Shown: positions 9,711 to 63,640 of the stretch, piece by piece | How the letters are laid out: each line of letters starts with the position of its first letter | How positions within the stretch are numbered: position 1 is the first letter of the stretch | Origin: Squalus acanthias | Lineage: Eukaryota | Assembly: GCA_030390025.1 (NCBI GenBank) | Contig: CM059432.1 | Span: forward strand, 83,082,001 to 83,146,000 | Direction of reading: 5' to 3' | DNA length: 64,000 bases | Translations under genes and position numbers: made by a program | The notes under the pieces: model-generated | Databases searched by the model: none | The model's input: only the letters and a program-made list of their open reading frames with translations | Told to the model about the DNA's origin: nothing

Positions 9711-9872
9711 CTTTAAGCATGAAACCAATGGTGTAACTGTGTCACAGCTGACAAAAATTCAACTTTCATTTCCACTCAAGTCAAAAATTAATAAAATTCA
9801 ATACTGTTCACTGGCACTAAAGCAATGTAGAATTATGTAATATCCTTCCATAGAAACCTACAATCACATCAC

Positions 9873-10675: not shown

Positions 10676-10907
10676 CTTGGATTCAAAAACGTTAGAGTGA
10701 TGTCACAGGAGAGCAGGTAGGTGATTGGTTGGTGAGTATTACAGCTCTTTTTGCTCTAAGTTAGGGAAGGGGGTTAAATTAAGAGCTGAGAAACTGTAAC
10801 TTGCTAGTACTTAACTTAAACTAAATAAAATAATCAAACAATAAACCTAAAATATCAATTGAATAAAATCTTTAACTAATGAATTAATAAATAAAACAAG
10901 GTTAGAG

Positions 10908-11886: not shown

Positions 11887-12039
11887 GGGGTCAAGTGAGG
11901 GTAAATTTAGAAATCTAAAAAGAGAAAGGTCAAGGCAATAGAGCAGTGTAGCGATTTGGGTAAAAATAAGCAGTGCGACAGGAAGGGACAGAGAGTTTAA
12001 CGGTAGCAGTGCAGCAGAGAATAACGATAAAAAATGTAA

Positions 12040-14820
12040 ATTAAAGGCACTTTATCTAAATGCATGAAGCATTCGTAACACGATAGATGAACTCGTGGCA
12101 CAAATAAAAATGGGTTTGATCTAACAGCCATTATAGAGACATGGTTGCAAGGTGGCCAAGGTTAGGAACTAAATGTTCCAGGGTACTTGATGTTTCGAAA
12201 AGACAGGAAGAATGGAAAAGGAGGGGGAGTAGCCCTGATAATAAAGGATGGCATTGGGACAGTAGCGAGAAAGGATCTTGGCTTGGAAGATCAGGAAGTA
12301 GAATCAGTATGGGTGGAGATAAGTAATAACAAGGGGCAGAAAACACTGGTGGAGTAGTATATAGGCCCCCTAACAGTAGCTGTACCGTTGGACAGAATAT
12401 TAAATCAAGAAATAGTAGAAGCTTGCAACAAAGGTAATGCAATAATCTTGGGGGACTTTAATCTTCATATAGACTGGACAAATCAAATTGACAAAGGTAG
12501 TCTGGAGGACAAGTTCATGGAATGCATTCAGGACAGTTTCCTAAAACAAGGTGTTATGGAATCAACCAGGGAACAGGCTATTTTAGATCTTGTACTGTGT
12601 AATGAGACAGGGTTAATTAGCAATCTCATAATAAAAGGATCCTCTGGGGCAGAGTGATCATAATGTGATAGAATTTCACATTAATTTTGACAGTGATTTG
12701 CCCAAGTCCGAAACTACAGTCTTAAACTTAAATAAAGCCAATTACATAGGTATGAGGGATGAGTTGGCTAAGGTAGATTGGAAAAATAGATTAAAAGGTA
12801 TGGCGGTAGATAAGCAGTGGCTAGCATTTAAAGAAATATTTCATAATTCTCAACAAAAATACATTCCATTGAGAAACAAAAATTCCATGGGAAAAGTGAT
12901 CCAACCGTGGCTAACTAAAGAAGTAAAGGATAGCATTAGATTGAAAGAAGAAGCTTATAATGTTGCAAAGAATAATAGTAAGCGTGAGGATTGGGAGAGT
13001 TTCGGAAACCAGCAAAGGTTGACCAAAAAAATTGATAAAAAAGGAAAAAGAGAAAACTTGCAAGAAATATAAAAGCAGATTGTAAGAGCTTCTACAAGTA
13101 TGTAAAAAGGAAGAGTAGCAAAAGTAAACGTTGGTCCCTTAAAGGCTGAGACAGGAGAAATTATTATGGGGAATAAGGAAATGGCAGAAATGTTAAACAA
13201 ATATTTTGCATCGGTTTTCACAGTAGAAGACACAAAAAGCATACCAATAATGGTGGGGAACCAAGGATCTAATGAAGGTGAGGAACTTAACGTAATTAAT
13301 CTAAGTAGAGAAAAAAGTACAAGAGGAATTAATGGGACTAAAAGCCAACAAATCCCGTGGAACTGACAGCCTACATCCTAGGGGTCTAAAAGAGGTGGCT
13401 GAAGAGATAGTGGATGCACTGCTTTTGATCTTCCAAAATTCCCGAGATTCTAAAATGGTCCCAGCGGATTGGAAGGTCGCAAATGTAACACCGCTATTCA
13501 AGAAAGGAGGGAGAGAAAAAACAGGGAACTACAGGCCAGTTAGCCTGACATCAGTCATCAGGAAAATGCTGGAAACCATTGTTAAGGAAGTGGTATCAGG
13601 GCACTTAGAAAATCATAACATGATTAGGCAGAGTCAACATGGTTTTATGAAAGGGAAATCGTGTTTGACAAATTTATTAGAGTTTTTTGAGAATGTAACT
13701 AGCAGGGTAGATAAAGGGGAACCAGTGGATGTGGTATATTTGGATTTCCAAAGGCATTCAATAAGGTGCCACATAAAAAGGTTATTACACAAGATTAGGG
13801 CTCATGGGGTTGGGAGTAATATAGTAGCATGGAGAGGATTGGCTAACGGACAGAAAACAGACAGTAGGGATAAATGGATCTTTTTCAGGTTGGCAGGCTG
13901 CAACTAGTGGGGTGCCGCAAGGATCAGTGTTGGGGCCTCAGCTATTTACAATCTATATTAATGACCTAGATGAAGGGACCGAGTGTAATGTATCCAAGTT
14001 TGCTGATGATACAAAGCTAGGTGGGACAGTAGGCTGTGAGGAGAACACAGAGTCTGCAAAGGGATATAGATAGACTAAGTGAGTGGGCAGTAAGGTGGCA
14101 GATGGAGTATAATGTAGGGAAAAGTGAGGTTATTCACTTTGGTAGGAAGAATAGAAAAACAGAATATTTTTTAAATGGGGAGAAACTTTCAAATGTTGGT
14201 GGTCAGAGCAATTTGGGTGTCCTCATGCAAGGAACACAGAAAGCTAGCATGCAGGTACAGCAAGCAATAAGCAAATGGCATGTTGGCCTTTATTGCAAGG
14301 GGGTTGGAGTATAAGAGTATGGAAGTCTTGCTACAATTGTACAGGGCTCTGGTGAGACCACACCTGGAGTACTGTGCACAGTTTTGGTCTCCTTATCTAA
14401 GGAAGGATATAGAGGCGGTGCAACGAAGGTTCACTAGATTGATTCCTGGGATGAGAGGGCTGTCCTATGATGAGAGATTGTGTAGAATGGGCCTATACTC
14501 TCTGGAGTTTTGAAGAATGAGAGGGGATCTCATTGAAACATACAATATTCTGAAGGGGATTGACAGGGTAGATGCTGAGAGGTTGTTTCCCCTGGCTGGA
14601 GTGTCTAGAACTAGGGGCATAGTCTCAGGATAAGGGGTCAGCCATTTAAGACCGAGATGAGAAGGAATTTCTTCACTCAGAGGGTTGTGAATCTTTGGAA
14701 TTCTCTGCCCCAGAGGATTGTGGATGCTGAGTCTTTGAGTATATTCAAGGCTGAGATAGATAGATTTTTGGACACTAGGGAATCAAGGGATATGGAGATC
14801 AGGTGGGAAAGTGGAGTTGA
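12040..14820 (+). pseudogene. CR1 ORF2 (APE endonuclease + reverse transcriptase), disrupted
   Basis: ORF fragments with LGDFN, NYRPVSLTS, QHGFMKGKSCLTNLL, VYLDFQ, RPHLEYCAQFWSP. The KFADDTKL region is visible at ~13995. Confidence 0.93.
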
Positions 14821-15214
14821 GGTCGAAGATCAGCCATGATCTTATTGAATGGCAGAGCAGGCTCGAGGGGCCATATGGCCTACTTCTGCTCTTATTTCTT
14901 ATATTCTAACCATCTCTAGAATGGTCCAAACTTTTTACCTCCAGTATCAAACCAAAGGCTATTCCAAGTATTAATCACTCTGTGAAGAGCTGGATCCTTA
15001 CATCAGTCCTGAACCACCATGGGGAGAATATGTTCCAACAGTCATGATCATTCAACACATCATCAGCTGAAAAGTACTCCCTGGGAGCAGGATATGGTCA
15101 ACCCATCTGCAATGGCAGATCTCGAGGGGATCAGCAGTAAAGGACAAAATACATAAAGAATCTTTCAGGAACAAAAAAAATGAAGTCACCCAGCTTCCAA
15201 CCAGATCTGTCCCT

Positions 15215-15591: not shown

Positions 15592-17590
15592 AAGTAGGAA
15601 AAACCTACGTGACCTCATCCTCACCAATCTACCTGTCGCAGATGCATCTGTCCATGAGGGTATTGGTAGAGTGACCACCGCACAGTCCTTGTGGAGACAA
15701 AGTCTAGTCTTCACACTGAACACTCTCCATCGTGTTGTGTGGCACTATCACAATGCTAAATTGGATAGCTTCAGAACAGATCTAGCAGCTCAAAAACTGG
15801 GAATCCATGAGGCGATGTGGGACATCAGCAGCAGCAGAATTATATTCCACCACAATCTGTAACCTCATGATCTGGCATATCACTCATTCTACCATTACCA
15901 TCAAGCCAGGGGACCAACCCTGGGTTCAATGAGTGGAGGAGAGCATGCCAGAAGCAACACCAGGTGTACCTAAAAATGAAGTGCCAACCAGGTGACACTG
16001 GATACAGCAACGGCTATGGGCACCGACAACATCCCGGCTATCGTGCTGAAGACTTGTGCTCCAGAACTAGCCGCGCCTCTAGCCAAGCTGTTCCAGTACA
16101 GCTACAACACTGGCATCTATCCAACAGTGTGGAAAACTGCCCAGGTGTCCTGTCCACAAAAAGCAGGACAAATCCAACCCGGCCAATTACCGCCCCATCA
16201 GTCTACTCTCAATCATCAGCAAAGTGATGGAAGGCGTCATCGACAGTGCTATCAAGCAGCACTTACTCACCAATAACCTGCTCACTGATGCCCAGTTTGG
16301 GTTCCGCCAAGACCACTTAGCTCCCGGCCTCATTACAGCCTTGTTCCAAACATGGACAAAGGAGCTGAATTCCAGAGATGAGGTGAGAGTGACTGCCCTT
16401 GACATCAAGGCAGCATTTGACAGAGTCTGGCATCAAGGATCCCTAGTAAAACTGAAGTCAATGGGAATCAGGGGGAAAACACTCCACTGGCTGGAGTCAT
16501 ACCTAGCACAAAGGCAGATGGTTGTGGTGGTTGAAGGTCAATCATCACAGCCCCAGGACATCGCTGCAGGAGTTCCTCAGGGCAGTGTCCTCGGCCCAAC
16601 CATCTTCAGCTGCTTCATCAATGACCTTCCCTCCAACATAAGGTCAGAAATGGGGATGTTCACTGATGACTGCACAGTGTTCTGATGACTGCACAGTGTT
16701 CAGCGCCATTCGCAACTCCACAGATAATGAAGCAGTCCATGCCCGCATGCAACAAGACCTGGACGACGTTCAGGCTTGGGCTGATAAGCGCCAGGTAACA
16801 TTCATGCCAGACAAGTGCCAGGCAATGACCATCTCCAACAAGAGAGTCTAACCACCACCCCTTGACATTCAACGGCATTACCATCGCCAAAACCCCTACC
16901 ATCAACATCCTGGGGGGTCACCATTAAGCAGAAACATAACTGGACCAGCCACATAAATACTGTGGCAACAAGAGCAGGTCAGAGGCTGGGTATTCTGCGG
17001 AAAGTGACTCACCTCCTCCTGACTCCCCAAAGCCTTTCCACCATCTACGAGGCACAAGGTCAGGAGTGTGATGGAATATTCTCCACTTGCCTGGATGAGT
17101 GCAGCTCCAACAACACTCAAGAAGCTCGACATCATCCAGGACAAAGCAGTCCGTTTGATTGGCACCCCATTGCACCACCTTAAACATTCACTCCCTCCAC
17201 CACTGGCACACCGTGGCTGCAGTGTCTACCATCTGAGATGCACTGCAGCAACTCGCCAAGGCTTCCTCGACAACACCTCCCAAACCCACGACCTCTACCG
17301 GCTAGAAGGACAAGGGCAGGAGGCGCACGGGAACATCACCACCTCCAAATTCCCCTCCAAGTCACGCACCATCATGACTTGGAAATATATTGCCAATTCT
17401 TCATTGTCGCTGGTTCCAAATCCTGGAACTCCCTCCCCAACAGCACTGTGGGAGTACCTTCACCACATGGACTGCAGCGGTTTAAGGCGGCGGCTCCTCA
17501 TCACCTTCGAGGGCAATTAGGGATGGGCAATAAATGCAGGCCTTGCCAGCAACGCCTACATCCCATGAATGAATATTTAAAAAAAAAAAA
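15592..17590 (+). mobile_element. Second CR1-clade LINE family, 5'-truncated with internal deletion
   Basis: ORFs with LDIKAAFDRVWH, GVPQGSVLGP, FTDD, MEYSPLAW. Ends GGGCAATAAATG...CATCCCATGAATGAAT plus poly-A. Confidence 0.9.
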
Positions 17591-19456: not shown

Positions 19457-22400
19457 ACAGAGCAGGATTAAACCAGAGTGTACTTAAACAGGGTGTTTTA
19501 TTTGGGCATTTGGAAAGAGTGGGAATTTGGAGAGGATGGCGAAGGAGTTGCTGCTTTTTGCCTACCCTACTTGTAGTGCTTTGTGTTACAGGTAGATATT
19601 TAATTTCAGTACCCATAACTTAATCTAGATCAAGTAAGCAGTCAAGAAACTACACTGTAAACTAAGTTACCTAATTACAAATTTAATTAGATTTAATTAA
19701 ATAAAACAAGTTCATATAGGGATGGCAGTACAGGTGGTGTGCCGCAACTGCAGCATGTGAGAGTTTGTGGAGAGCATTGTGATCCCGGACAATCACGTTT
19801 GCAATAAGTGCCTGCATCTTGAGGAACTTCAGCTCATTGAGCTGGAGTCGGAGGAGCAGACATTGTGGGGCATCAGGGATGGGGAGAGTTACCTGGACAC
19901 TGTGATCCAGGAGGCAGTCACACCCCCTTAGGTTAGGTAGTGGTACATGTCTGGTTAGTGGTCAGGGACAGGAGGGTATGACTGCAACTCGGGCAGGTAA
20001 GGGGACCCAGGTGCAGTGCTGGAGGAGCCTCAGCCTTTGCCCTTGTCCAACAGGTATGAGGTTCTTGCTGCCTGTATGGATGAGGGGAAAAGCCTGCAGG
20101 ATGGATGAGCAGGCTGACCATGGCGCAGGAGGCCATTCAAGTGGGGAGAGTGAAAGGGAATGTAGTTGTGGTAGGAGACAGTATAGTCAGGGGGATAAAT
20201 ACTGTTTTCTGCAGCCGCGACGAGAGTTCCAAAGGTTCTGCTGCCTGCCCGGTGCCAGGGTTAAAGACATCTCCTCGCGGTTGGAGGAGAACTTGGAGTG
20301 GGAGGGGGAGGATCCAGTTGTCGTGGTCCACGTAGGAACCAACAACATAGGTAGAACTAGGAATGAGGTTCTGCTGAGGGAGTTTGAGGAGCTAGGATCC
20401 AAATTAAAAAGCAGAACCTCAAAAAGGTAATAATCTCTGGATTGTTACCCGAGCCACGCGCAAATTGGCATAGGGACAAACAGATTAGAGGTTTAAATGC
20501 GTGGCTGAAAGAGTGGTGTGGGAGGAAGGGGTTTCAGTTCAGGGGGCACTGGCACCAGTACTGGGGAAAGTGGGAGCTGTTCCGTTGGGATGGACTCCAC
20601 TTCAACCAGGGCTGGGACCAGAGTCCTGGTGAACTGAATAACTAGGGCAGTAGACAGGGCTTTAAACTAATGAAGGGGGTGGGGGGGGGGGGGAAAGCAT
20701 TCAGGGAAGAGTAAATTTAAAAGCAGCGAGAGAAATGTCAAGCTCTAGAGCAGAGTAGAGTTTGGGGTAAAAATAAGCAGAGTGGGTCAGGAAGGGACAG
20801 AGAGTAACAAAGGTAATAAGGCATCAGTGACTAAGGTGACATCAGGGAAAAATAGAAATAAGTCAAAGCTAAAGGCACTATATCTGAATGCGCGAAGCAT
20901 TTGCAACAAAATAGATGAATTAATAGCGCAGATAGAAATTAATAGGTTTGATCTAATAGCCATTACGGAGGCATGGATGCAATGCTGGCCAAGGTTGGGA
21001 ACTAAATATTCCAGGACACTTAACTTTTAGAAAGATAGGCAAAATGGAAAAGGAGGAGGGGTAGCCCTGATAATAAAGGATGGGATAAAGATAGTAGAGA
21101 GAAAGAATCTTAGCTCCGAAAATCAAGTAGTAGAATCAGTTTGGGTGGAGCCAAGAAACAGCAAGAGGCAGAAAACATTGGTGGGAGTTGTTTATAGGCC
21201 CCCAAACAGTAGTTGTAATGTAGGGACAGAGTATAAATCAGGAAATTAGAGGCGCATGTAGCAAGGGTAATACAGTAATCATGGGGGACTTTAATCTACA
21301 TATAGACTGGGCAAACCAAATTTGCAGTAATAGTATGGAGGACGAGTTCATGGAATGTATGCAAGATAGGTTTCTAGATCAGTATGTTGAGGAACTAACT
21401 AGGGAACAAGCTATTTTAGATATAGTATTGTGCAACGAGAAAGAGTTAATTAATAACCTTGTAGTAAAGGAGCCTTTAGGGAAGCATGACCATAATATGA
21501 TAGAATTTTATATTGAGTTTGAAAGTGATTTAGTTAAATCTGAAACTAGGGTCTTAAGTCTAAACAAAGCAAACTACATAGGTATTAGGGGCAAGTTGGC
21601 TAAGGTAGATTGGGAAACTACATTAAAAGGTATAACAGTAGAGAAGCAATGTCTAGCATTTAAAAATTAATACATAATTTACAACAAATATACATTCCTT
21701 AAAGGCACAAAAACCCCACAGGAAAAGTAATCCAACTGTGGCTAACGAGAGGTTTAAAGATAGTATTAGATCAAGCGAAGAGGCTTATAATGTTGCCAAA
21801 AAGAGTAGTAAGCCTGAGAATTGGGAGGATTTTAGAATTCAGCAAAGGAGGACCAAGAAATTGATAAAGAAAGGGACAATAGAATGAGAGTAAACTAGCA
21901 AGAGATATAAAAACAGACTGTAAAAGCTTCTATAGGTATGTAAAAAGGAAAAGATTAGCGAAAGTAAATGAGAGTCCTTTACAGACTGAGACAGGAGAAA
22001 TTATAATGGGGAATAAGGAAATGGAAGAGAAATTAAACAAATACTTTGTGTCTCTTCACGGAAGACGACGCAAAAAACTTCCCGGAAATAGTGGAGACCC
22101 AAGGGTCTATCGAGAATGAGGAACTGAAAGAAATTAGTAAAAAAAAATAGTACTGGAGAAATTAATGGGTCTGAAAGCTGATAAATCCCCTGGACCTGAT
22201 GGCCTACATCCTAGGGTTTTGAAAGAGGTGGCTATAGAGATAGTGGATGCACTGGCTGTCATTTTATAAAAATCCATAGATTCTAGAACCGATCCCATGG
22301 ATTGGAAGATAGCAAATGTAACCCCACTATTTAAGAAAGGCGGGAGAGAGAAAACGGGAACTACAGACCAGTTAGCCTGACATCAGTAGTAGGGAAAATG

Positions 22401-23742
22401 CTAGAATCTATTATTAAGGACGTGGTAACAGGGCACTTGGAAAATAATAGGATTGGGCAGAGTCAACACAGATTTATGAAAGGGAAATAGTGTTCAACAA
22501 ATCTGTTAGAATTTTATGAGCTTGTAACTAGCAGAATAGATATGGGGAAACCAGTGGATGTGGTGTATTTGGATTTTCAGAAGGCATTCGATAAGGTGTC
22601 ACACAAGAGGTTATTGAACAAAATTATGGCTCATGGGATTGGGGGTAATATACTAGCATGGACTGAGGATTGGTTAACGGACAGAAAACAGAGAGTAGGA
22701 ATAAACGGGTCATTTTCGGGTTGGCAGGCTGTAACTAGTAGGGTACCGCAAGGATCAGTGCTTGGGCCTCAGCTATTCACAATCTATATCAATGATTTGG
22801 ATCAGGGGACCAAATGTAATATATCCAAGTTTGCTGATAATACAAAGCTGGGTTGGAATGTAAGTTGTGAGGAGGATGCAAAGAGGCTTCAAGGGGATAT
22901 AGACAGGCTAAGTGAGTGGGCAAGAACATGGCAAATGGAATATAATGTGGAGAAATGTGAAGTTATTCACTGTTAGGAAAAAAGGAAAAATAAAAAAGCA
23001 GAGTATTTTTTAAAATGGTGAGAAATTGGGGAATGTTGTTGTTCAGAGGGACCTTGGGTGTCCTTGTACACGAATCACTGAAAGGTAACATGCAGGTACA
23101 GCAAGCAAATGGTATGTTGGCCTTTATTACAAGAGGATTTGAGTGTAAGAGTAAAGATGTCTTACTGCAATTATATATGAGACCACACCTGGAGTATTGT
23201 GTACAGTTTTGGTCTCCTTACATAAGGAAGGATATACTTGCCATAGAGGGAGTGCAATGAAGGTTCACCAGACTGGTTCCTGGGATGGGGGGGATTGTCC
23301 TATGAGGAGAGATTGAATAGACTAGGCCTATATTTTCTGGGGTTTAGAAGAATGAGAGGTGATCTCATTGAAACATACAAAATTCTTACAGGGCTTGACA
23401 GGGTAGATGCAGGGAGCATGTTTCCCCTGACCGGGGAGTCTAGAACCAGGGGTCACAGTTGCAGAATATGGGGTCGGCCATTTAGGACTGAGATGAGGAG
23501 AAATTTATTCACTCAGATGGTGGTGAATCTTTGGAATTCTCTACCCCAGAGGGCTGTGGAGGCTCAGTTGTTGAATATATTCAAGACAAAGATCGATAGA
23601 TTTTTGGATATTAAGCAAATCAAGGGATATGGGGATAGTGCAGAAAAGTGGAGTTGAGATAGAAGATCAGCCATGATCTTATTGAATGGCAGAGCAGGCT
23701 CGAGGGGCTGAATGGCCTACTCCTGCTCCTATTTCTTATGTT
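19457..23742 (+). mobile_element. Near-full-length CR1 LINE (copy C), frameshifted
   Basis: ORF1 remnants ~19723-20670 (VVGDSIVR, HVGTNN), ORF2 ~20870-23657 (YLNARS, GDFN, YLDFQKAFDKV, PQGSVLGP, FADN), tail CTCCTATTTCTTATGTTCT. Confidence 0.93.
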
Positions 23743-24169
23743 CTTCCTCCCCCTCCCATCAGAGGATATTGTGGGGGTGGGGGAGGGAGAAAGAGAAATG
23801 TGTAAAAATGTTACACTTGCTTCAAAAATTCACCAATCCAAACAAACAAACAATCACTTCCCCACACCCCCCCCCCCCCCACCCCCCACCTTCCCCAAGA
23901 GTAATATTTTGACAATGTAGGGATTGTTGCATTTCACTACAATATTATGTAAGCAGCGGACAGTCACCTAAAGCCATGATCACCTGATTAAGAGTTTCAC
24001 ATAGAGTAGGCATTGCGTTTTAAATTCACGAGCAATCTTAATAGATTACAATGCCATGGATACTGACATATGACTCAAAACTAGGAATGTAGGCAGCTCT
24101 AGTTTAGTTCAGCATTCAGTTTTTAAGTATTTGAATCCATCCCATTTAGAATCTTTTGCTTCGAGGCTT

Positions 24170-28129: not shown

Positions 28130-28755
28130 GTCAGCCCTGGCTCAGTGTTGGCACTCTTGCCTCTTGAGTCAGAAGGTTGTGGGTTGAAACCCCACTCCAG
28201 CGACTTGAGCACATAATCCAGACTGACACTCCAGTGCAGTGCTGAGGGAGTGCTGCACTGTCGGAGGTGCCGTCTTTTGGATGAGACGTTAAACCGAAGC
28301 CCCGTTTGCTCTCAGGTGGACATAAAAGATCCCACTGCCCCTATTTGAAGAAGTGCAGGGTAGTTTTCCCTCAACCAACGCACAAAAACAGATTATCCGG
28401 TCAGTCAGAGAGCAGTGGACATTAAATAAATTTAAAACGGAGATAGACAGTTTCCTAGCTGATAAGGGAATTAAGGGTTATGGGGAGCGGGCAGGGAAGT
28501 GGACGTGAGTCTAGGTTCGGATCAGCCATGATCCTATTGAATGGCGGAGCAGGCCCGAAGGGTCGTATGGCCTACTCCTGCTCCTACTTCTTATGATCTT
28601 ATGATCTCATTGCAGTTTGTGGGACCTTGCTTGGTGCAAATTGGCTGCTGCGCTTCCCTACATTACTACACTTCAAAAGTACCTAATTGGCTGTAAAGCA
28701 TGTTGGGTCATTCAGAGGTCATGAAAGGTGCTATATAAATGCAATTCTTTCTTCA
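28130..28755 (+). mobile_element. DeuSINE (SacSINE1-like) interrupted by CR1 3' fragment at ~28404-28605
   Basis: tRNA-like head TGGCTCAGTGTTGG...GGGTTGAAACCC, central GCAGTGCTGAGGGAGTGCTGCACTGTCGGAGGTGCCGTCTTT, tail GCTATATAAATGCAA. Insert ends CTCCTACTTCTTATGATCTTATGA. Confidence 0.85.
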
Positions 28756-36184: not shown

Positions 36185-36690
36185 ATCCCAGTGCTGAGGA
36201 AGTGCTGCACTGTTGGAGTCCTCGTCTTTTGGAAAAGACTTTAAACCGAGGCCCTGTCTGCTCTCTCAGCTAGACGTAAAGGATCTCAGGGCACCATTTC
36301 GAAGAAGAGCTGGGCAATGTTCCTGCTAACTTTTTTTTTTGGGTGCGCAGCCCATTCAAATTACCGCGCATGCGTAGTTTTTAACCATTAGAACGCAGTT
36401 AAGCTAACTGCGCGGGATCTGCAGGTCGCTGCGCGGCCACACAGCTTAAAGGGAACATTGGAGCTGGGGTGTCCTAGCCAATATTTATTCCTCAATCAAC
36501 ATCATTTAAAAAAAATTCTGGTCATTGATCTCATTGCGGTTTGTGGGAGCTTGCTGTGCGCAAATAGGCTGTCGCGTTTCCTACATTACAACAGTGATTA
36601 CACTTCAAAAAGTACTTCATTTGCTGTATAGTGCTTTGGGACGTCCGGAGTTTGTGAAAGGCGCTATATAAATGCACGTCCTTTCTCAAT
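36185..36690 (+). mobile_element. DeuSINE interrupted by hAT MITE
   Basis: Central domain and tail as in 28130 and 63290 copies. Confidence 0.85.
36315..36460. mobile_element. 146-bp non-autonomous hAT-type MITE
   Basis: TIR CAATGTTCC...GGAACATTG with perfect 8-bp TSD GAGCTGGG (36307-36314, 36461-36468). Confidence 0.9.
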
Positions 36691-42589: not shown

Positions 42590-43775
42590 ATCAACTTTGC
42601 TTCCAATTTCCACCCTTCCCTCGCCTTCACATGGTCCATCTCCGACTCTTCCCTTCCTCGACTTCTGTGTCTCCATTTCTGGGGGGTAGGCTATCGACCA
42701 ATATCCACTATAAGCCCACTGACTCCCACAGCTGCATTGACTACAGTTCATCCCACCCCGCTTCCTGTAAGGACTCTATTCCATTCTCTCCCAGTTTCTC
42801 AGTCTCCGTTGCATCTGTTCTGACGATGCCACCTTCCATATCAGCGCTTCAGATTGGTCTGCCTTTTTCTTCAACCGAGGATTCCCCTTCACCGCAGTTG
42901 ACAGGGCCCTCAAACGTGTCTGTTCCATTTCCCGCACTTCTGCCCTCAACCCTTCCCCTCCCTCTTAGAACAATGGGGTTTCCCTTGACCTCACCTTCCA
43001 CCCCACCAGCCTCCACATCCAATGGATCATACGCCACCATTTCCGCCACCTCCAGCATGATCCCACCACCAAACACATCTTCTACTCTCTTTTCAGCATT
43101 CTGAAAGGACAGTTCCCTCCGCGACACCTTGGTCTACTCCTCAATCACAGCTAACACCCCCTCCCTTCCCACGCAAGCACAGGAGATGCAATACCTGTCC
43201 TTTTACCTCCTCCGTCCCCACCACCCAGGGTCCCAAACACTCCTTCCAGGTAAAACTGCAATTTACTTGCACTTCTTTCAATTTAGTATATTGTATTCAC
43301 TGCTCATGATGCAGTCTCCTCTACACTGGAGACCAAACACAGATTAGGTGACCGCTTTACGGAACACCTCCTTTCAATCCACAAGCGTGACCCCGAGCTT
43401 CCGGTCACCAGTCACTTTAATTCTCCACTCGACTCCCACTGTCCTCGGCCAACGTAAGTTTGAGGAACAGCACCTCATCTTTCGATTAGGCACTTTACAG
43501 CCTTCCGGACACAGTGAATTCAACAATTTCAGATCATAACCTCTGCCCCCACGGCAGCTGATGATGATTCGGCTATTCCCATTTACACCTCATCTAGACT
43601 CATCTTTTGTTTCTTTACTTGTCCTATTATCATCTACTTTTGCTTTGTACAATCATACTGTTTGTCATTTAATCTCTCCTGCCTTCCACCCTATCACAGA
43701 CCTTCCCTGTTGTTCTTTCCTCCCTTCCCCCCTTTCCCTGCCTCTGCACGTGCTGAAAACCGGTTATATCTCTTC
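42590..43775 (+). mobile_element. Penelope-like element (RT C-terminal part + GIY-YIG), decayed
   Basis: NFASNFHP, IHYKPTDSHS, EEQHLIFRLGTLQPSG. Colinear with 51097-52290. Confidence 0.85.
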
Positions 43776-48420: not shown

Positions 48421-50614
48421 CATAAGAACCTAAGACGTAGGAGCAGGAGTAGGTCATTTGGCTCCTCGAGCCTGCTCCGCCATTCAATAAGATCATGGCT
48501 GATCTGATCTTGGCCTCAACTCCACTTCCCTGATCGCTCCCCATAACCCTTGACTCCCTTACCATTCAAAAATCTGTCTATCTCCACCTTAAATATATTC
48601 AATGACCCAGCCTCCATAGCTCTCTGGGGAAGAGAATTCCAAAGATTCACAACCCTCAGAAGAAATGCCTCCTCATTTCGGATTTAAAAGGGTGCCCCTT
48701 ATTCTGAAATTATGCCCCCTAGTTCTAGATTCCCCCACGAGGGGAAACATCCTCGCTACATCTACCCTGTCAAGCCCCTTCAGAATCTTATACATTTCAA
48801 TAAGATCCCCTCTCATTCTTCTAAAGTCCAATGAGTATAGGCCCAACCTGCTCAACCATGCTTCATAAGATAACCCCTTCATCTCCGGAATCAACCTCAT
48901 GAACCTTCTCTGAACTGCCTCCAATGCAAGTATATCCTTCCTTAAATAAGGAGACCAAAACTGTACGTAGTACTCCAGGTGTGGTCTCACCAATAGTTGT
49001 AACAGGACTTCCCTACTTTTATACTCCATTCCCTTTGCAATAAAGGCCAACACTCCATTTGCCTTCCTAATTACTTGCTGTACCTGCATGCTAACTTTGT
49101 GTGATTCATGTACAAGGACCCCCAGATCTCTCTGTACCTCAGCATTTTGTAATCTCTCCCCATTTAAATAATAATTTGCTTTTCTATTTTTGCTACCAAA
49201 GTGGATAACCTCACATTTTCCCCACATTAAACGCCATCTGCCAGATTTTTGCCCACTCACTTAGCCTATCTATATCCCTTTGGAGATTCTTTGCGTCCTC
49301 CACACAATTTGCTTTCCCACCTATCTTTGTATCATCAGCAAATTTGGCTACATTACATTCGGTCCCTTCATCCAAGTCATTAATATAGATTGTAAATAGT
49401 TGAGGCCCCAGCACTGATCCCTGCGGCACCTCGCTAGTTACAGTTTGCTAACCTGAAAATGACCCATTTATCCCGACTCTCTGTTTTCTGTTAGTTAGCC
49501 AACCCTCTATCCATGCTAATATATTACCCCCAACCCTGTGAGCTCTTATCTTGTGTGGTAACCTTTTATGTGGCACCTTATCGAATGCCTTCTGGAAATC
49601 CAAATACATATCTACTGGTTCCCCTTTATCCACCCTGTTCGTTACATCCTCAAAAGAACTCCAGCAAATTTGTCAAACATGATTTCCCTTTCATAAAACC
49701 ATGCTGACTCTGCTTGACTAGATTATGATTTTCTAAATGTCCTGCTATCACTTCCTTAATGATGGACCCCTGCATTTTCCCAATGACAGATGTTAGGCTA
49801 ACTGGTCGATAGTTGCCTGTTTTCTGTCTCCCTCCTTTCTTTAATAGGGGCGTTACATTTGCGGTTTTCCAGTCCACTGGGACCTCTCCAGAATCCAGGG
49901 AATTTTGGTAGATTACAACCAATGCATCCACTATCTCTGCAGCCACCTCTTAAGACTCTAGGATGCAGGCCATCAGGTCCAGGGGACTTGTCCACCTTTA
50001 GTCCCATTAGTTTGCCTAGTACTTTCTCTCTAGTGATAGTGATCGTTTTAAGTTCCCCCCCACCCACCACCCCATAGCCCCTTGATTATCCATTATTGGG
50101 ATGCTTTTAGTGTCTTCTAACGTGAAGATCGATGCAAAATATTTGTTGAAAGTCTCCGCCATTTCCCTGTTTCCCATTATTAATTCCCCAGACTCATCCT
50201 CTAGGGGACCAACGTTTACTTTAGCTACTCTCTTCCTTTTTATATACCTGTAGAAGCTCTTACTGTCTGTTTTTATATTTCTTGCTAGCTTACTCTCATA
50301 AGCCATCTTCTCTCTCTCTATCATTTTTTTAGTTGTCCTTCGCTGGTTTTTAAAAATTTCCCAATCCTCTGGCCTTCACTATTCTTCGCAACATTGTATG
50401 CTTTTGTTTTCAATTTGATACCATCCTTTACTTCCTTAGTTAGCCACGGATGGTTCATCCTTCTCAGTCTTTCTTTCTCACTGGAAAATATCTTTGCTGA
50501 GAGTTATGAAATATCTCCTTAAATGTTTGCCACTGCTTTTCTACAGTCTTACCCTGCAATATATTTTCCCAGTCCACTTTAACCAAGTCTGCCTTCATAC
50601 CTTTGTAATTACCT
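48421..50614 (-). mobile_element. 5'-truncated CR1, same subfamily as copy A
   Basis: Near-identical to 2736-4905. Minus ORFs with PQGSVLGP, FADDTK, YLDFQKAFDKV. Confidence 0.95.
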
Positions 50615-51059: not shown

Positions 51060-52403
51060 TACAAATGTTTGTCAAAGTGAATGAAATTTTCCAGTTACTT
51101 GGCTTCCAATTTCCACCCTTCCCTCACCTTCACATGGTCCATCTCTGACTCTTCCCTTCCTCAATTTCTCTGTCTCCATCTCCAGGGATAGGCTATTGAC
51201 AAACATTCACTACAAGCCCACCCCGCTTCCTGTAAGGACTCTATTCCATTCTCCCAGTTTCTCCGTCTCATCTGCTCTGACGATGCCACCTTCCATATTA
51301 GTGCTTCAGACATGTCTTCCTTTTTCCTCTACTGTGGTTGACACGGCCCTTGACCGGTGTCCATTCTATTTCCCGCACTTCTGCTCTCACCCCTTCCCCT
51401 CCCTCCCAGAATCACGATAGGGTTCCCCTTGTCCGCACTTTTCACACCACCAGCCTCCACATTCAACGGATCATCCTCCGCCATTTCCGCCACATCCAGC
51501 GTGATCCCATCACCAAACACATCTTCCCCTCACCTCCCCTTTCAGCATTCCGAAGGGACCGCTCCCTCCACGACACCCTGGTCCACTCCTCTATCACCCC
51601 CAACACCCCTTCCCCTTGCACCTTCCCGTGCAAGCGCAGAAGATGCAACACATGCCCTTTTACCTCCACCCTTCCCACTGTTCAGGGCCCCCAAACACTC
51701 CTTCCAGGTGAAATAGTGATTTACTTGTACTTCTTGCAATTTAGTATACTGTATTCGCTGCTCACAATGCGGTCTCCTCTACATTGGGGAGACCAAAACG
51801 CAGATCGGAGGTGTTCCGCAAAACGGTCACCCATTCAGTCCATAAGGGTGATCCCAAGCTTCCGGTCGCCTGTCACTTTAATGCTCTGCTCCACTCCCAC
51901 TCAGACCTCACCGTCCTCGGCCTCTTACACTGTTCCAATGAAGCTCAACGTAAGCTCGAGGAACAGCACCTCATCTTTCGATTCGGCACTTTACAGCCTT
52001 CTGGACTCAGTTCAACAATTTCAGACCATAACCTCTACCCCTATCCTTTTTTTCCCATTTTTTTTCTCACATGGCAGCTGGCTTTCATTCTGCCATTGCC
52101 ATTTACACTTAATCTAGAGCCATCTTTTGTTTCTTAACTTGTCCCATTACCATCTCCTTTTGCCTTGCCCCATCATACTTTTGTCTCTTAATCTCTCCTG
52201 CCTTCCATCCTATCACAGACCTTCCCTTTTGTTCTTTCCTCCCCTCCCCCTTTCCCTGCTCCTACACTTGCTTTAAAACCTGTTTCATCTCCAGCTTTTT
52301 CCAGTTCTGACGAAGGGTCATTGACCTGAAACGTTAACTCTGTTTCTCTCTCCACAGATGCTGCCTGACCTGCTGAGTATTTCCAGCATTTTACTGTTTT
52401 TAT
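51060..52403 (+). mobile_element. Penelope-like element 3' part with GIY-YIG endonuclease remnant and pLTR
   Basis: RRDRSLHDTLVHS, PCKRRRCNTCP, PVACHFN, RKLEEQHLIFRFGTLQPSGL. 3' end CAGATGCTGCCTGACCTGCTGAGTATTTCCAGCA. Confidence 0.9.
52303..52339 (+). ncRNA. Minimal type I hammerhead ribozyme motif in Penelope-like pLTR
   Basis: AGTT-CTGACGA-A-GGGTCA-T-TGACCT-GAAA-CG-TT-AACT: conserved core, helices I and II, palindromic AACGTT helix III. Confidence 0.75.
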
Positions 52404-53277
52404 ATCAGGAAGGCTGAAGCCACTGTCTTTGTGCCCCACAGCAAACACCGTTCCCTGGCCACCGATTCAACTCCCACCACCCTGCTATGGCCCAGATATA
52501 ACTAGACTGTTTGCAACCTCGGCATCCTGTTCAATGTTGAGCAGAGCTTCAGACTCCATTTCCTCTCCATCACAAAGACTGCATACTTCCACCATTGCAA
52601 CATTTTCTGCCTCTGCTCCTGAAATCTTTATACATGTATTTGTCACTTCCATACTCGACTACTCCAACACACTCCTTGCTGGCCACCTATCCTCCATTAA
52701 CTCCAAATTGTTAAAACGCACGTATCTTGTCCTGCACCAAGTCGTGCTCACCCATCACCCCGTCCTCGCTGACCTACAGTGGCGGAAATTTTAAATCCTG
52801 GCCTTAGTCTTCAAATCCCTCCGTGGCCTCACCCCACTTCATCTCCTTTATATATCCTTCTTGAACACCCCTTTCTTCTGAAAAGTCTTTTGCGGACTGG
52901 GTCTTAGGCTTTGGAATTCTCTCCTTAAATGCCTATGCCGCTCCATATCCTTTAAAAACCCATCTCTTCAACCAAACTTTTAATCTCCCTTCTTAATGTC
53001 TCCTTCTGTGGGTCAGTGTGTGTTTGTCTGCAGTAGCACCGTGCCTCTGAGTCAGAAGGTTGTGGGTTCAAGTCCCACTCCAGAGACTTGAGCAGAAAAA
53101 TCTAGGGTGACACTTCAGTGCAGTGCTGAGGGAGTGCTGCACTGTCAGAGGTGCCGTCTTTCAGATGAGTCGTTAAATTGAGGCCGTCTACTCTCTCAGG
53201 TGGACGTAAAAGATCCCATGGCACTATTTTGAAGGGTCGCACAACACCAGGTTATAGTCCAACAGTTTTATTTGAAA

Positions 53278-53320
53278 TCACAAGCTTTCGGAGCTATCGA
53301 TTTGCTCCTTCCTCAGGTGA
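53278..53320 (-). ncRNA. Minimal hammerhead ribozyme motif (left arm, mirror copy)
   Basis: Exact reverse complement of 53350-53392. Confidence 0.7.
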
Positions 53321-53349
53321 AGTAAATTAGATCCTGTATCTAATTTACT

Positions 53350-53392
53350 TCACCTGAGGAAGGAGCAAATCGATAGCTCCGAAAGCTTGTGA
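53350..53392 (+). ncRNA. Minimal hammerhead ribozyme motif (right arm)
   Basis: TCAC-CTGAGGA-A-GGAGC-AAATCGATA-GCTCC-GAAA-GC-TT-GTGA. Confidence 0.7.
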
Positions 53393-55439
53393 TTTCAAAT
53401 AAAACTGTTGGACTATAACCTGGTGTTGTGCGACCTCTCAATTTTGTCCACCCCAGTCCAACACCGGCATCTCCGCATCATGACCACTATTTTGAAGAGC
53501 AGGGGAATTACCCTCCTGGTCAATATTTATCCCTCGATCAACATCACTAAAACAAATTACCTGGTCATGATCACATTGCTATTTGTGGGAGCTTGCTGTG
53601 TGCAAATTGGCTGCTGTGTTTCCTGCATTACAACAGTGACTACACTTCAAAAAAGTACTTCATTGGCTGCAAAGTGCTTTGGGACGTCCGGTGATCGTAA
53701 AAAACGCTCTATAAATGCAAGTTTTTCATTCACCTATTCCTTGTCACATTATGTCAAAAGGCACTATATAAAAGGCAATTTGATAGTCTGAATATATTTC
53801 AAATTCCTGTTGGAAATGTCAGCACAATTTTGCCTTTGAAATATTCTGGCACAAAGCAGTATACCCATCAGTTAGAAGTTTGCGTACAGCACTGCGAATG
53901 GGTGGGCAGCACCATTTAGCCTTTTAGTTTGGACGTGTCTTAGGATTCTTCTGTCGTCAAAAAAATTAAAATGGACTTTCCTAAAATGGATACTTCATAA
54001 AATATAAAACTGGTTAGCCAACTTCCAGTCAAAGTTTTGGGCAGCAATCCATTGCATGCTCACAACACATGAGCCATTGAATAGATGTATGCTCTAATCA
54101 CAGTGACACATATCTAAAGCCTGCAATCTGCACCTCCAAATGGAAAGAAGAATGTCACCAAAGCTGACTATTTTTATCGAGAAACATTCTTTATAGAATT
54201 TTAACTACATAATTGCCAGTTTCTTTCCGTACAATTGCAAGATTTACTGATTTGCAAACATTTAACTTGTTAAAGCAGCTAGACTATAAACTACAAACAG
54301 ACAGAGATCATTTGAAAGCATTCATACTATTCCCTACACTATTTCCTGGCTTAGAGTGTAAGTAAGGTGCGCCCAAGCCTGGAGCAATATCCTACAAACC
54401 AGACAAAATATGATAGCATGGAGTGAACAGCTTCTCAAATGTTCTCTCCCCATGGGGAAGCTCACAACCTCTGATTGATGCCTCCTTGTTGCCCAGACAA
54501 GATCGTAAATTTGCCCTGTGGGGAAACATCAGAGATCCAATCACACAACAGTGCAGCACGGCGGAGTAGCAATTAAACTCCACCAGAAACTCTTATTGCC
54601 CACCTACTACTATGGAAAAGTCTCCTTTACAAATGCTAGCTGAACAAAGGTAGCTTCCAATTTACAGGTGATGACTATTTACACAATGCTAAGAATCAAA
54701 AAATCAGAAAATGCTGAAACTGAGAGGGGAGAAAGAGAGGGAGAGAGAAATGAAAAGAGGGGAGAGAACGATCGAGAGAGAAAGTGAGGGAGCAAGAAAG
54801 GTCAGCGGTGCAGGTCTCTGCAGTGAACATGCTCTTGAAGACCGGCCAGCTTTCTTCTTCACGAGCACATTCTCTACTGTAAACAATATGTAGGCTCTCA
54901 GTTTTGTACGTAGATAAAACAGGATTTATACACCGCTAGAAAAATGCAAACATGATGTTTGAACAGGTTAATGAGTTTGATTGCTACAATGCAGCCACTT
55001 TATTATGTGCAACGTGATGAAGTGTTAGATGTGATGAAGTGTTAACTGTGCTAATCGGTACACAGTACCCGTTAGATTCCACAGCTGTGAGCTGTAAGAA
55101 TTGAATTAGCTGTTACTGACTTTGATTGAGGCCCCAGTGGAGCGACAGATGGTACAGAAAGTACATTAAGACTATTTTCCTAATACAGCATTTAGAGAAT
55201 TAACTACAGGAATTTTAATAATTTACGAGTCTCGCAGCTAAACTTTTTATTTTGATAGGAATGAAAAAATGGTTTGGTACATCAAGATTGTGTTCATTTA
55301 ATCCTATTATTGATACAAGTGTTATTCATTTAAGTAGGTTTTACTATACTACTAATTTGGCGTCAGAATTACACCTGTATTGCCACCAAATTGGTAACAC
55401 TGTTGATCTCACTGACATACTTTCAAAACACAGGGAGGA

Positions 55440-55788
55440 AGATGCACTGCAGCAACTCTGCCAAGGCTCCTTCGACAGCACCTCCCAAACCTGCGACCTC
55501 TTCCACCTAGAAGGACAAGGGCAGCAGGCGCATGGGAACACCATCCCCTCCAAGTTCCCCTCCAAGTCACACACCATCCTGACTTGGCAGTATATCGACG
55601 ATCCTTCATCATCGCTGGGTCAAAATCCTGGCACTCCCTCCCTAACAGCACTGTGGGAGTACCTTCACCACATGGACTGCAGCAGTTCAAGAAGGCAGCT
55701 CACCACCACCTTCTCAAGGGCAACTAGGGATGGGCAATAAATGCTGGCCTTGCCAGCGACGCCCACATCCCATGACCGAATAATAAAG
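55440..55788 (+). mobile_element. 3' end of the second CR1-clade family
   Basis: Colinear with 17237-17580. Confidence 0.9.
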
Positions 55789-56064
55789 TGATGTCCACTG
55801 CCCACTGATACAGGTTGTCTGCAGGTACCCTTGCAGCAAATGGCACAGATCGGCAAGTGTCTGTGCCGACCTGGAGCACCAGTTCCCCAGACATTGGCAG
55901 GTAGCTGCTTCGAGGCTTGCAGAAAGGGTTGGTGCCATATAGCAGGTGCAGTAAGTGTGGCTTTTGCACCTGCTGGTCAAACTGGTGTACCTTCTTTCAT
56001 CTGGTCCTACCGCAGCCATGAAATACTGTAATTCTGGTGCTTCAAACCCCATTTAAAAAATGCA

Positions 56065-57630
56065 TTCATGGGATGTGGTCGTCACTGGCAAGGCCAGCAT
56101 TTATTGCCCATCCCCAACTGCCCTTGAAGGTAGTGGTGAGCCACCTTCTTGAACCACTGCAGTCCATGTGGTAAAGGTACTCCCACCACAGTGCTCTTAG
56201 GGAAGGAGTTCCAGGATTTTGACCCAGCGATGATGAAGGAATAGATATATATTTCCAAGTCAGGATGTTATGTGACTTGGAGGGGAACTTGGGCGTGGTG
56301 GTGTTCCCATGCGCCTGCTGCCCTTGTCCTTCTAGGCAGTAGAGGTCATGGGTTTGGGAGGTGCTGCCGAAGACTTGGCGAGTTGCTGCAGTGCATCGTG
56401 TAGATGGTGCACACTGCAGCCACGGTACGCCGGGAGTGATGTTTAAGGTGGTGGATGGAGTGCCAATCAAGCGGGCTGCTTTGTCCAGGATGGTGTCGAG
56501 CTTAGAGTGTTGTTGGAGCTGCACTCGCCCAGGCAAGTGGAGAGTATTCCATCACACTCTGACTTGTGCTTTGTAGGTGGTGGAAAGGCTTTAGGGAGTC
56601 AGGTGGCGAGTCACTTGCTGCAGAATACCCAGCCTCTGACCTGCTCTATGTGGCTGGTCCAGCTAAGTTTCTGGTCAATGCTGACCCTCAGGATGTTGAT
56701 AGTGGGGGATTTGACAATGGTAATGCCATTGAATGTCAAGGGAAGGTGGTTAGACTCTCTCTTGTTGGGAGTTCATTGCCTGGCACTTGTGTGGCACAAA
56801 TGTGACTTGCCACTTATCAGCCAAAGCCTGAATGTTGTCCAGGTCTTTCTGCATTCGGGCATGGACTGCTTCATTATCTGAGGAGTTGCGAATGGAACTG
56901 AACAGTGTAAACATCAGCGAACATCCCCACTTCTGACCTAATGATGGAGGAAAGGTCATTGAAGAAGTAGCTGAAGATGGTTGGACCTAGGACACTGCCC
57001 TGAGGAACTCCTGCAGCGAGTCCTGGGGCTGAGATGATTGGTCTCCAACAATCACAACCATCTGCCTTTGTGCTAGGTATGACTCCAGCCAGTGGAGACC
57101 CCCCCCCCCCGATTCCCACTGACATCAATTTTACTAGGTCTCCTTGATGCCACACTCGGTTAAATGCTGCCTTGATGTCAAGGGCAGTCACGCTCTCAAC
57201 TCTGGAATTCAGCTCTTTTGTCCATGTTTGGACCAAGGCTGTAATGAGGTCTGGAGCCAAGCGGTCCTGGCGGAACCCAAACTGGGCATCAGTGAGCAGG
57301 TTATTGGTGAGTTAAGTGCCGCTTGATAGCACTGTCAATGCCACCTTCCATCACTTTGCTGATGATTCAGAGTAAACTGATGGGGCGGTAATTGGTTGGA
57401 TTGGATTTGTTTTGTTTTTTGTGGACAGGACATACCTGGGCAATTTTCCACTTTGTCAGGTAGATGCCAGTGTTGTAGCTGTACTGGAACAGCTTGGCTA
57501 GAGGCGCAGCTAGCTCTGGAGTGTGAAGACGGGACTTTGTGGTGGTCACTCCTACCAATACGGTCATGGACAGATGCATCCGCATCCGGTAGATTGGTGA
57601 GGAAGAGGTCAAGTAGTTTTTTCCCCTCGT
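56065..57630 (-). mobile_element. Second CR1-clade family copy, 5'-truncated with internal deletion
   Basis: Minus ORFs with LDIKAAFNRVWH, GVPQGSVLGP, FAD, NYRPISLL. Confidence 0.9.
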
Positions 57631-63289: not shown

Positions 63290-63640
63290 GTGTCAGCTGT
63301 GGCTCAGTTGGTAGCACTCTCGCCTGAGTCAGAAGGTTGTGGGTTCAAGTCCATCTCCAGAGACTTGAGCACAAAATCTAGGCTGACACTCTAGTGCAGT
63401 GCTGAGGGAGTGCTGCACTGTCAAGAGTTGCCATCTTTCGAATGAGACTTTAAACCAATGGCCTCTCGGGTGAATGTAAAAGATCTCATGGCACGATTTC
63501 AAAGAATAGCAGGGGAGTTTTCCCCAGTGTCCTGACCAATAGTTATCCCTCAACCAACATCGCTAAAACAGATTATCTGGTCATTATCTCATTGCTGTTT
63601 GTGGGACCTTGCTGTGTGCATATTGGAAGTGTTTCCAAAT
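63290..63640 (+). mobile_element. DeuSINE (3'-truncated)
   Basis: A box TGGCTCAGTTGG, B box GGTTCAAGTCC, central CAGTGCTGAGGGAGTGCTGCACTGTC. Confidence 0.88.

What the first reader, a model, noticed from the sequence alone, without database searches (positions are those of the whole stretch)
53222..53497. Perfect 98-bp foldback element with a hammerhead ribozyme motif on both strands
Seen: a 250-bp insert in a DeuSINE, bounded by a 13-bp TSD (CACTATTTTGAAG). It has two 98-bp arms with no mismatch, a 5-nt loop and a 49-bp tail. Each arm holds TCAC-CTGAGGA-A-GGAGC-loop-GCTCC-GAAA-GCTT-GTGA, a minimal hammerhead core with a palindromic helix III. Known: Penelope-like elements carry such minimal hammerheads in pLTRs, and inverted pLTRs occur. 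Inference: this is either an extreme 5'-truncated/inverted Penelope insertion or a non-autonomous, non-coding ribozyme-bearing family. A transcript of either strand contains both the ribozyme and its exact antisense, so hairpin formation would compete with ribozyme folding and also yield long dsRNA. The sequence differs from the Penelope pLTR at 52.3k, so a second family is implied.
Basis: partly seen in the sequence, partly recalled or inferred. Interest (0 to 1): 0.72.

Follow-up and report, generated by a model that had tools for sequence, protein, structure and literature searches.

The report
Head-to-head stump of Penelope-like retrotransposon
This 250-base mirror-image insert is real and is a cut-short end piece of a very abundant repeat, likely a Penelope-type jumping gene, laid down in a head-to-head layout already described for that class; its two ribozyme motifs are predicted to be locked inside the hairpin, so it is mostly ordinary.

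Summary
Public contigs show that arm plus tail is the 3' end of a very high-copy repeat (14,830 contigs in run X1). The repeat continues upstream of the fold, which sits on a native 3-bp GAT/ATC match. Only 5 of 150 contigs in X1 and 0 of 83 in X5 cross this fold, none listed as identical to the window, while other copies truncate or invert elsewhere. So this is likely one 5'-truncated, inverted insertion of a Penelope-like element, not a ribozyme family. Inverted copy, tail, duplication and opposite-strand hammerheads are published (PMC3846280, PMC8557442, PMC4209133). Likely mechanism: both cut target strands primed reverse transcription and the two cDNAs were joined (about 55%); snap-back is the rival. 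On either strand the antisense arm is transcribed first, so the ribozyme is predicted to be trapped. The parent ORF was not retrieved. The scan has noted such stumps many times, in this genome and others.

The parts
53027..53234 (+). 5' part of the host SINE-like repeat (tRNA-like head; DeuSINE name recalled, not tested)
   Evidence: 83-85% match to window copies at 28158-28350 and 63324-63499; weak tRNA match 53027-53085 below gathering
53222..53234 (+). Target-site duplication, left copy, 13 bp, 69% A+T
53235..53332 (-). Inverted arm, 98 bp; its outer end mirrors 53435, the inner edge of the tail
53278..53320 (-). Minimal hammerhead motif on the - strand (core starts at 53316)
   Evidence: descriptor hit; mirror of 53350-53392
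53330..53340 (+). Fold: native GAT (53330-32), loop CCTGT, native ATC (53338-40); the repeat's own sequence starts at 53330
   Evidence: native contigs align from 53330 with other letters upstream, 5 contigs each in X1 and X5
53338..53435 (+). Direct arm, 98 bp, 3' end region (likely pLTR) of a very high-copy repeat
53350..53392 (+). Minimal type-I hammerhead motif: helix I TCAC/GTGA, core CTGAGGA at 53354, extra A, helix II 53362-66/53376-80, GAAA, palindromic AGCT, predicted cut between 53388 and 53389
   Evidence: features as listed in PMC4209133; activity untested
53436..53484 (+). One-sided tail, 49 nt, C-rich; its end coincides with the family's 3' ends
   Evidence: loose ends at 53481-53488 in X5 (66, 54, 19 contigs), X6 (19, 6, 9 contigs) and X21 (3 reads)
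53485..53497 (+). Target-site duplication, right copy
53485..53732 (+). 3' part of the host SINE-like repeat
   Evidence: matches window copies at 63504-63626, 36472-36679 and 28601-28755

Best explanation
The insert is a head-to-head pair of cut-short copies of the 3' end of a very abundant hammerhead-bearing repeat, likely a Penelope-like retrotransposon, and likely made in one insertion in which both cut strands of the target primed reverse transcription and the two cDNAs were joined at a 3-base match. Shown: anatomy, target duplication, high copy number, native continuation upstream of the fold, GAT/ATC at the fold, variable junctions in other copies. Inferred steps: (1) the element's GIY-YIG endonuclease made a 13-nt staggered cut in the SINE; (2) one 3' end primed at the outer start (53484), the other at the inner start (53435), which leaves a tail on one side only; (3) the cDNAs stopped at about 53330 and 53338, annealed through GAT/ATC and were filled in on each other, giving perfect arms and a 5-nt loop; (4) the product has no ORF, lacks the upstream TATA-like motif and, if read through, forms a 98-bp hairpin that traps the ribozyme: a dead-end passenger. 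The stated confidence is for the twin-priming route; that it is a one-off truncated and inverted insertion of a Penelope-like element I put at about 0.85.
For: Family size and 3' ends at 53481-53488. Native contigs start aligning at 53330 and continue upstream with non-palindromic letters; 5 of 150 contigs in X1 and 0 of 83 in X5 cross the fold, none listed without a difference. Other junctions: five joints at 53347>53383, 53376>53446, 53428>53410, 53432>53389, 53480>53449 (the first two labelled 'opposite strands', the others listed in table 5c without a kind); 5' loose ends at 53333, 53334, 53339, 53340, 53342. One X5 contig has a target-like stretch (15 of 16 letters as 53219-53234), then 15 nt of reversed tail starting exactly at the outer end, then a direct copy from 53345: an asymmetric product that fits two primings better than a hairpin. 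PMC11167929: a PLE protein cuts and extends both target strands, is predicted to be a dimer, and its two RT start sites bracket the tail, starting 111-118 nt after the start of stem II; here the outer end lies 123 nt after helix II starts. Layout published in PMC8557442 and PMC3846280.
Against: No parent ORF was retrieved, so PLE identity rests on the ribozyme type and the layout. The tail is 49 nt, longer than the published 30-40. That 53435 is a family-wide start site is only weakly supported (depth falls over 53431-53451 in X1, X5 and X21, but family variants lie there too). A nearly symmetric fold with a 5-nt loop is what snap-back gives by itself, whereas two independent cDNAs need a reason to stop within 8 nt of each other. 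PMC3846280 reads such junction palindromes as self-priming. Five fold contigs at depths 25-116 in X1 could be several genomic copies or library fold-back chimeras. Contigs drop variants and a filter removes some, so the rarity of the fold is a lower bound.
Confidence: 0.55

Rival explanations
1. Same element and same single insertion, but the inverted arm was made by snap-back: one cDNA ran to 53330, its 3' ATC folded onto GAT eight bases back and it copied itself up to 53435 before being joined to the other target end.
For: The fold is nearly symmetric and sits on a native 3-bp match. The arms are identical, including the minority C at 53435 where about 70% of X1 depth reads T. PMC3846280 favours self-priming (Discussion). 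Five contigs fold at about the same place with different loops.
Against: It does not explain why copying stops at the inner tail edge and abuts the target duplication directly, nor the X5 contig whose 15-nt inverted piece begins at the outer end right after target-like sequence. Identical arms also follow from two primings on one RNA or one source copy.
Confidence: 0.27
2. The 250-bp foldback is a non-autonomous, non-coding family that is copied as a unit by a Penelope-like enzyme.
For: In X1 five contigs cross a fold at about this place at depths 115.6, 83.9, 61.7, 51.8 and 25, above the 10-26 of most listed pieces of that run, so some junctions may be multi-copy. Non-autonomous PLE derivatives exist (bioRxiv 10.64898/2026.07.22.740005).
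Against: The five differ from each other and from the window (one, one, three inserted letters; one and three mismatches), sum to 338 against 119,000-843,000 on the native side, and are absent from X5 (0 of 83; about 55% of the run read). No second copy in the window. Published retrozymes are direct tandems, not inversions. A 98-bp hairpin is a poor RT template (inference).
Confidence: 0.08
3. Assembly or library artefact (a fold-back chimera), or later homogenisation of the arms of an older insertion by gene conversion.
For: The exact junction was not among the contigs laid in X1 or X5, and no listed piece bridges tail and flank. Perfect palindromes are a known chimera type (own knowledge).
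Against: A chimera would not stop at the tail edge, produce a 13-bp duplication and leave the host SINE continuous on both sides. It is not known that these runs are the window's individual or species (best share of words 0.54).
Confidence: 0.05

Closest known systems
Insertions of endonuclease-positive Penelope-like elements with inverted pLTR, tail and TSD (Pen2a_Av and Pen2_Av, PMC3846280, passages and Discussion read; general scheme in PMC8557442, passages and Fig. 2 legend read)
   Same: 5'-truncated direct copy with an adjacent inverted copy, head to head; palindrome at the junction; extension on one side only; short target duplication; hammerhead in the repeat.
   Different: No ORF between the repeats (extreme truncation); tail 49 nt against 30-40; duplication 13 bp against 8-10 in the passages read; parent ORF not retrieved here.
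Minimal hammerheads of metazoan PLE pLTRs (PMC4209133, parts 1-2 of 4 read)
   Same: Type-I core, extra base between positions 9 and 10.1, G10.1-C11.1 pair, palindromic 15.2-16.2, 4-bp helix I. The paper already reports dual motifs 100-700 bp apart on opposite strands and relates scattered motifs to truncated PLEs.
   Different: The two cores here are only about 40 bp apart and perfectly complementary in context; helix II is 5 bp; activity untested.
PAc (Poseidon of Anolis carolinensis; PMC11167929, parts 1-2 of 4 read)
   Same: Similar spacing from hammerhead stem II to the outer end (123 nt here, 111-118 there); tail explained as the stretch between two RT start sites; both target strands extended.
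   Different: No ATG at stem II here (core reads CTGAGGA; an ATG lies at 53480-53482 instead). The parts read do not discuss inverted copies.
Non-LTR retrozymes (bioRxiv 10.64898/2026.07.22.740005, part 1 of 5 and passages read)
   Same: Short, non-coding, type-I hammerhead, PLE-related.
   Different: Defined as direct tandem repeats with at least two same-strand ribozymes; this insert is an inversion with one motif per strand.
Twin priming of L1 elements (recalled, no call)
   Same: Works like it: both target strands prime, and the cDNAs are joined at a short match.
   Different: In L1 the second primer binds upstream on the RNA, giving an inversion without a palindrome; here both starts lie 49 nt apart at the 3' end, so the product is a palindrome.

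Membership tests
Endonuclease-positive Penelope-like element insertion | Parent encodes telomerase-like RT plus GIY-YIG endonuclease | not testable with these tools
   No whole genome held; no match in metagenome, viral or prokaryote contigs; read laying shows at most 30 loose letters.
Endonuclease-positive Penelope-like element insertion | Minimal hammerhead in the terminal repeat | tested here: met
   Descriptor hit with all four extra features of PMC4209133.
Endonuclease-positive Penelope-like element insertion | Dispersed high-copy repeat with fixed 3' end and variable 5' truncation | tested here: met
   14,830, 8,978 and 2,187 contigs laid in X1, X5, X6; 3' loose ends at 53481-53488; 5' loose ends at six positions in 53333-53345.
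Endonuclease-positive Penelope-like element insertion | Inverted 5'-truncated copy adjacent to the 5' end, head to head | tested here: met
Endonuclease-positive Penelope-like element insertion | Extension (tail) on one end only | tested here: met
   53436-53484 has no mirror on the left.
Endonuclease-positive Penelope-like element insertion | Tail of the typical 30-40 nt, bounded by two RT start sites | tested here: inconclusive
   49 nt here; outer site well supported, inner site only by a fall in depth confounded by variants.
Endonuclease-positive Penelope-like element insertion | Short target duplication at an AT-rich site | tested here: met
   13 bp, 69% A+T; present once in uninterrupted SINE copies.
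Minimal hammerhead ribozyme (active) | Self-cleavage, as a dimer or with protein help | not testable with these tools
   Needs an assay; folding predicts sequestration in the hairpin.
Rfam hammerhead families | Match to a covariance model | tested here: not met
   No hammerhead family at gathering or at E up to 10; the motif lacks a true helix III.
Non-LTR retrozyme | Direct tandem units, each with a same-strand hammerhead | tested here: not met
   One motif per strand, inverted.
Non-autonomous foldback family (MITE-like) | Many copies sharing loop and arm length | tested here: not met
   5 of 150 and 0 of 83 contigs cross the fold, all differing; other junctions seen. Contig filters make this a lower bound.
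DeuSINE (host repeat) | Deu conserved domain | not tested
   No SINE library; name recalled. PMC5499810 (passages) says tRNA-headed Deu SINEs occur in sharks but showed no sequence.

The most novel reading that the evidence does not exclude
The foldback is a small mobile unit of its own: a hairpin RNA that a Penelope-like enzyme re-copies whole, carrying a ribozyme on each strand that is silenced by its own antisense. The several near-identical folds at GAT/ATC with depths of 25-116 in run X1 would be its sister copies.
Probability: 0.07. Interest if true: 0.65.

Novelty: new member of a known kind. Interest (0 to 1): 0.22.

Why it matters
As one locus it matters little: a young, dead stump in a published layout. 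As a footprint it has modest value. How Penelope-like elements make their inverted copy is unsettled in the papers read (self-priming in PMC3846280; two start sites and both strands extended in PMC11167929), and very short, perfect stumps with sharp ends can discriminate twin priming from snap-back when surveyed genome-wide. My searches for Penelope with 'twin priming' (2 papers, search listing only, each naming Penelope once) and 'twin-priming' (0 papers) found no statement of that model, but the library lacks most subscription papers.

Tried and rejected
Whole-genome search: none held, so copies, empty alleles and the parent could not be read directly. Exact-pattern scans of metagenome, viral and prokaryote-genome contigs: 0 matches each. 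Rfam: only generic hairpin matches (miRNA models far below gathering); a miRNA reading was rejected. Single-arm folding shows helices I and II but no unusual stability (z -0.14 to -1.16). Co-folding two core copies did not give the dimeric hammerhead; the method is weak for this. No RNA holder listed. X7 and X11 laid nothing on 53309-53374; no proof of absence. X21 gave 9 reads only. Summed contig depth is no copy number, and the ramps at the ends of the laid stretch look like tiling edges, so I did not read a truncation profile from them. Run-off at the RNA's 5' end (lead from earlier notes): a TATA-like motif upstream in X5 contigs (agreement 0.97; X1's consensus differs, 0.73) and initiator-like sites at 53342 and 53347 predict a start 12-17 nt downstream of 53330, yet this copy keeps native letters from 53330; pile-up could not be tested because the 66-nt stretch shows starts only within about 53330-53345. 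A possible 68-nt intron (53389-53456) has no joint listed in X6. The neighbouring element's endonuclease was confirmed only weakly: GIY-YIG E 0.03, 15.1 bits, below the cut-off of 22.6; 0 families for its 6 open stretches among 30 scanned; homologue searches gave 1 unnamed protein without Pfam match and none. Literature searches for a shark Penelope foldback or MITE-like derivative listed nothing on the point. Look-ups by sequence and by nearby place in earlier notes were empty. No supplements were read; Fig. S2 of PMC11167929 may bear on the spacing of the two start sites.

Full report
Observation. The sequence was read. The arms 53235-53332 and 53338-53435 are complementary over exactly 98 bp, the loop is CCTGT, the tail 53436-53484 is 49 nt and the insert 250 bp. 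A 13-nt direct repeat bounds it. No other perfect inverted repeat of 12 bp or more with a loop up to 11 nt exists in the window, and there is no second copy of the insert in it. The flanks are consecutive parts of one SINE-like repeat: they match 63324-63499 and 63504-63626 of an uninterrupted copy, and four other copies show the homologous site once. The name DeuSINE is recalled, not tested. That the host is a shark comes from earlier AI notes on this genome and my recall, not from a test.

The ribozyme motif. A descriptor of my own (CTGAnGA, helix II of 4 bp or more, GAAA, short helix III, UH, helix I of 4 bp or more) finds 3 sites in both strands of 64 kb: the two arms and 52307; 100 shuffles give none. 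The arm motif has the four features that PMC4209133 lists beyond its descriptor or as typical: an extra base after position 9, the G10.1-C11.1 pair, a palindrome at 15.2-16.2 and a short helix I. Indels seen in family contigs lie at 53366-53367, the edge of loop II. Rfam has no hammerhead match. The same paper found no cleavage by a single minimal motif and low cleavage by dimers; PMC11167929 found cleavage only with the element's protein and no need of it for insertion in vitro. In the insert the hairpin folds at -187 and -193 kcal/mol; forcing helix II costs 31 kcal/mol; and on either strand the antisense arm is transcribed before the ribozyme arm. The two motifs are on opposite strands, so they cannot dimerise in one RNA. 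The ribozyme is therefore predicted to be a trapped passenger. Transcription was not tested.

What the arm belongs to. No genome was held, so I used public runs (21 listed, 6 laid). On 53333-53520, 14,830 contigs of X1, 8,978 of X5 and 2,187 of X6 were laid, and 9 raw reads of X21. Loose ends with poor agreement gather at 53481-53488 (66, 54 and 19 contigs in X5; 19, 6 and 9 in X6; 3 reads in X21; 20 rows shown, 335 not shown): the family's 3' end is the insert's tail end. On 53309-53374 native contigs align from 53330 and carry other, non-palindromic letters upstream (5 contigs each in X1 and X5). So GAT at 53330-32, the loop and ATC at 53338-40 are all native sequence, and the fold sits on a natural 3-bp match.

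Family or event. In X1, 5 of 150 laid contigs reach into the left arm; their depths (115.6, 61.7, 25, 51.8, 83.9) sum to 338, equal to the depth of those bins, against 119,000 in the first native bin and 843,000 at the plateau (0.3% to 0.04%; summed depth is no copy number). All five differ from the window, three by inserted letters and three by mismatches (one by both). In X5, 0 of 83 cross (about 55% of the run read); X7 and X11 laid nothing. Other copies break at 53333, 53334, 53339, 53340 and 53342 into unrelated sequence (12 rows shown, 3 not), and five other joints were listed, two labelled as strand changes. This argues for separate events, with this GAT/ATC site used more than once. 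Against that reading: the five depths exceed the 10-26 of most listed X1 pieces, so a few junctions may be multi-copy; they may also be library chimeras; and contig filters can hide a junction.

Mechanism. PMC8557442 describes an inverted 5'-truncated copy next to the 5' end and a 30-40-bp tail at one end; PMC3846280 shows it with 8-10-bp duplications and palindromes at the inverted junction, and reads these as self-priming; PMC4209133 already notes dual minimal hammerheads on opposite strands. PMC11167929 shows that a PLE protein cuts and extends both target strands and that two RT start sites bracket the tail. The geometry here is similar: 123 nt from helix II to the outer end against 111-118. 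I infer that one target end primed at 53484 and the other at 53435, that the cDNAs ended near 53330 and 53338, paired by ATC/GAT and were filled in. One X5 contig supports independent priming on the left: target-like letters (15 of 16 as 53219-53234), 15 nt of reversed tail beginning exactly at the outer end, then a direct copy from 53345 (a single contig). Snap-back remains a serious rival, because it yields symmetry and identical arms without further assumptions; both arms carry the minority C at 53435, which fits either route.

The run-off idea. Earlier notes propose that such folds mark the start of the element's RNA. Here a TATA-like motif in upstream X5 letters and initiator-like sites at 53342 and 53347 put the predicted start 12-17 nt downstream of 53330, yet the insert keeps native letters from 53330. 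For this copy the template likely began further upstream, or my predicted start is wrong; X1's upstream consensus does not read as cleanly. The fold is near the predicted start but not at it. I could not test pile-up.

The neighbour. 51097-52400 has a second, diverged copy at 42594-43772 (75%), a CxxC-bearing stretch and a YIGET motif by eye, a GIY-YIG match below cut-off and its own minimal hammerhead with different helices. Its end shares no significant sequence with the arm. This supports a second PLE-type family and, weakly, the link between this ribozyme type and PLEs in this genome.

Verdict. Real, young-looking, and in a published layout: a new member of a known kind. PLE identity rests on ribozyme type, layout and family behaviour; the parent ORF was not retrieved. 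Papers: PMC4209133 and PMC11167929, parts 1-2 of 4; PMC3846280, passages and Discussion; PMC8557442, PMC8969392, PMC5499810, PMC6155905, passages; bioRxiv 10.64898/2026.07.22.740005, part 1 of 5 and passages; no supplements. The scan has many similar notes (814 and 1,172 notes of 2,615 fit two word look-ups in this genome, 8 shown each); these are unchecked and were not counted as support. Interest 0.22.

Noticed in passing
window 53219-53234 and one X5 contig (loose end before 53345): An independent insertion of the same repeat appears to sit at the same position of another copy of the host SINE (15 of 16 letters alike), which hints at a preferred target site. One contig only.
   Followed up: no
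window 53389-53482: A donor-like GTGATT begins exactly at the predicted ribozyme cut (53389); a pyrimidine run and CAG end at 53456; an ATG follows at 53480, where family copies end. This could be a 68-nt intron before the parent's start codon. No such joint was listed in run X6.
   Followed up: partly
upstream of 53330 in X5 contigs; window 53340-53351: TATA-like motif 27-32 nt before two initiator-like sites; the foldback has lost the TATA-like motif.
   Followed up: partly
window 51097-52400 and 42594-43772: Two diverged 3' fragments of a second PLE-type family with a CxxC linker and GIY-YIG-like motif (weak Pfam match); only the first has a minimal hammerhead by my descriptor (52307).
   Followed up: partly
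window 53485-53503: The host SINE copy is three letters shorter here than four other window copies and than 4 X1 contigs: an older slip, or a small loss at insertion.
   Followed up: no
window 2742-6619, 10871-14907, 19682-23744, 48424-50614: Several 2-4 kb copies (73-92% alike) of a LINE-like element with GDSL-esterase, AP-endonuclease and RT matches.
   Followed up: partly
window 16059-17582, 55441-57521: A second RT-bearing repeat family in both orientations, with an inverted pair at 55441-55775 and 56066-56397 (87%).
   Followed up: no
window 9872-10674: Tandem array with a period of about 51-54 bp and open frames of 262-312 codons on the - strand.
   Followed up: no
loose ends before 53369-53376: Related repeat families share the 3' part of the arm but have other letters upstream and other bases at core position 7 and in helix II (mixed consensus, agreement 0.5-0.95).
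   Followed up: no
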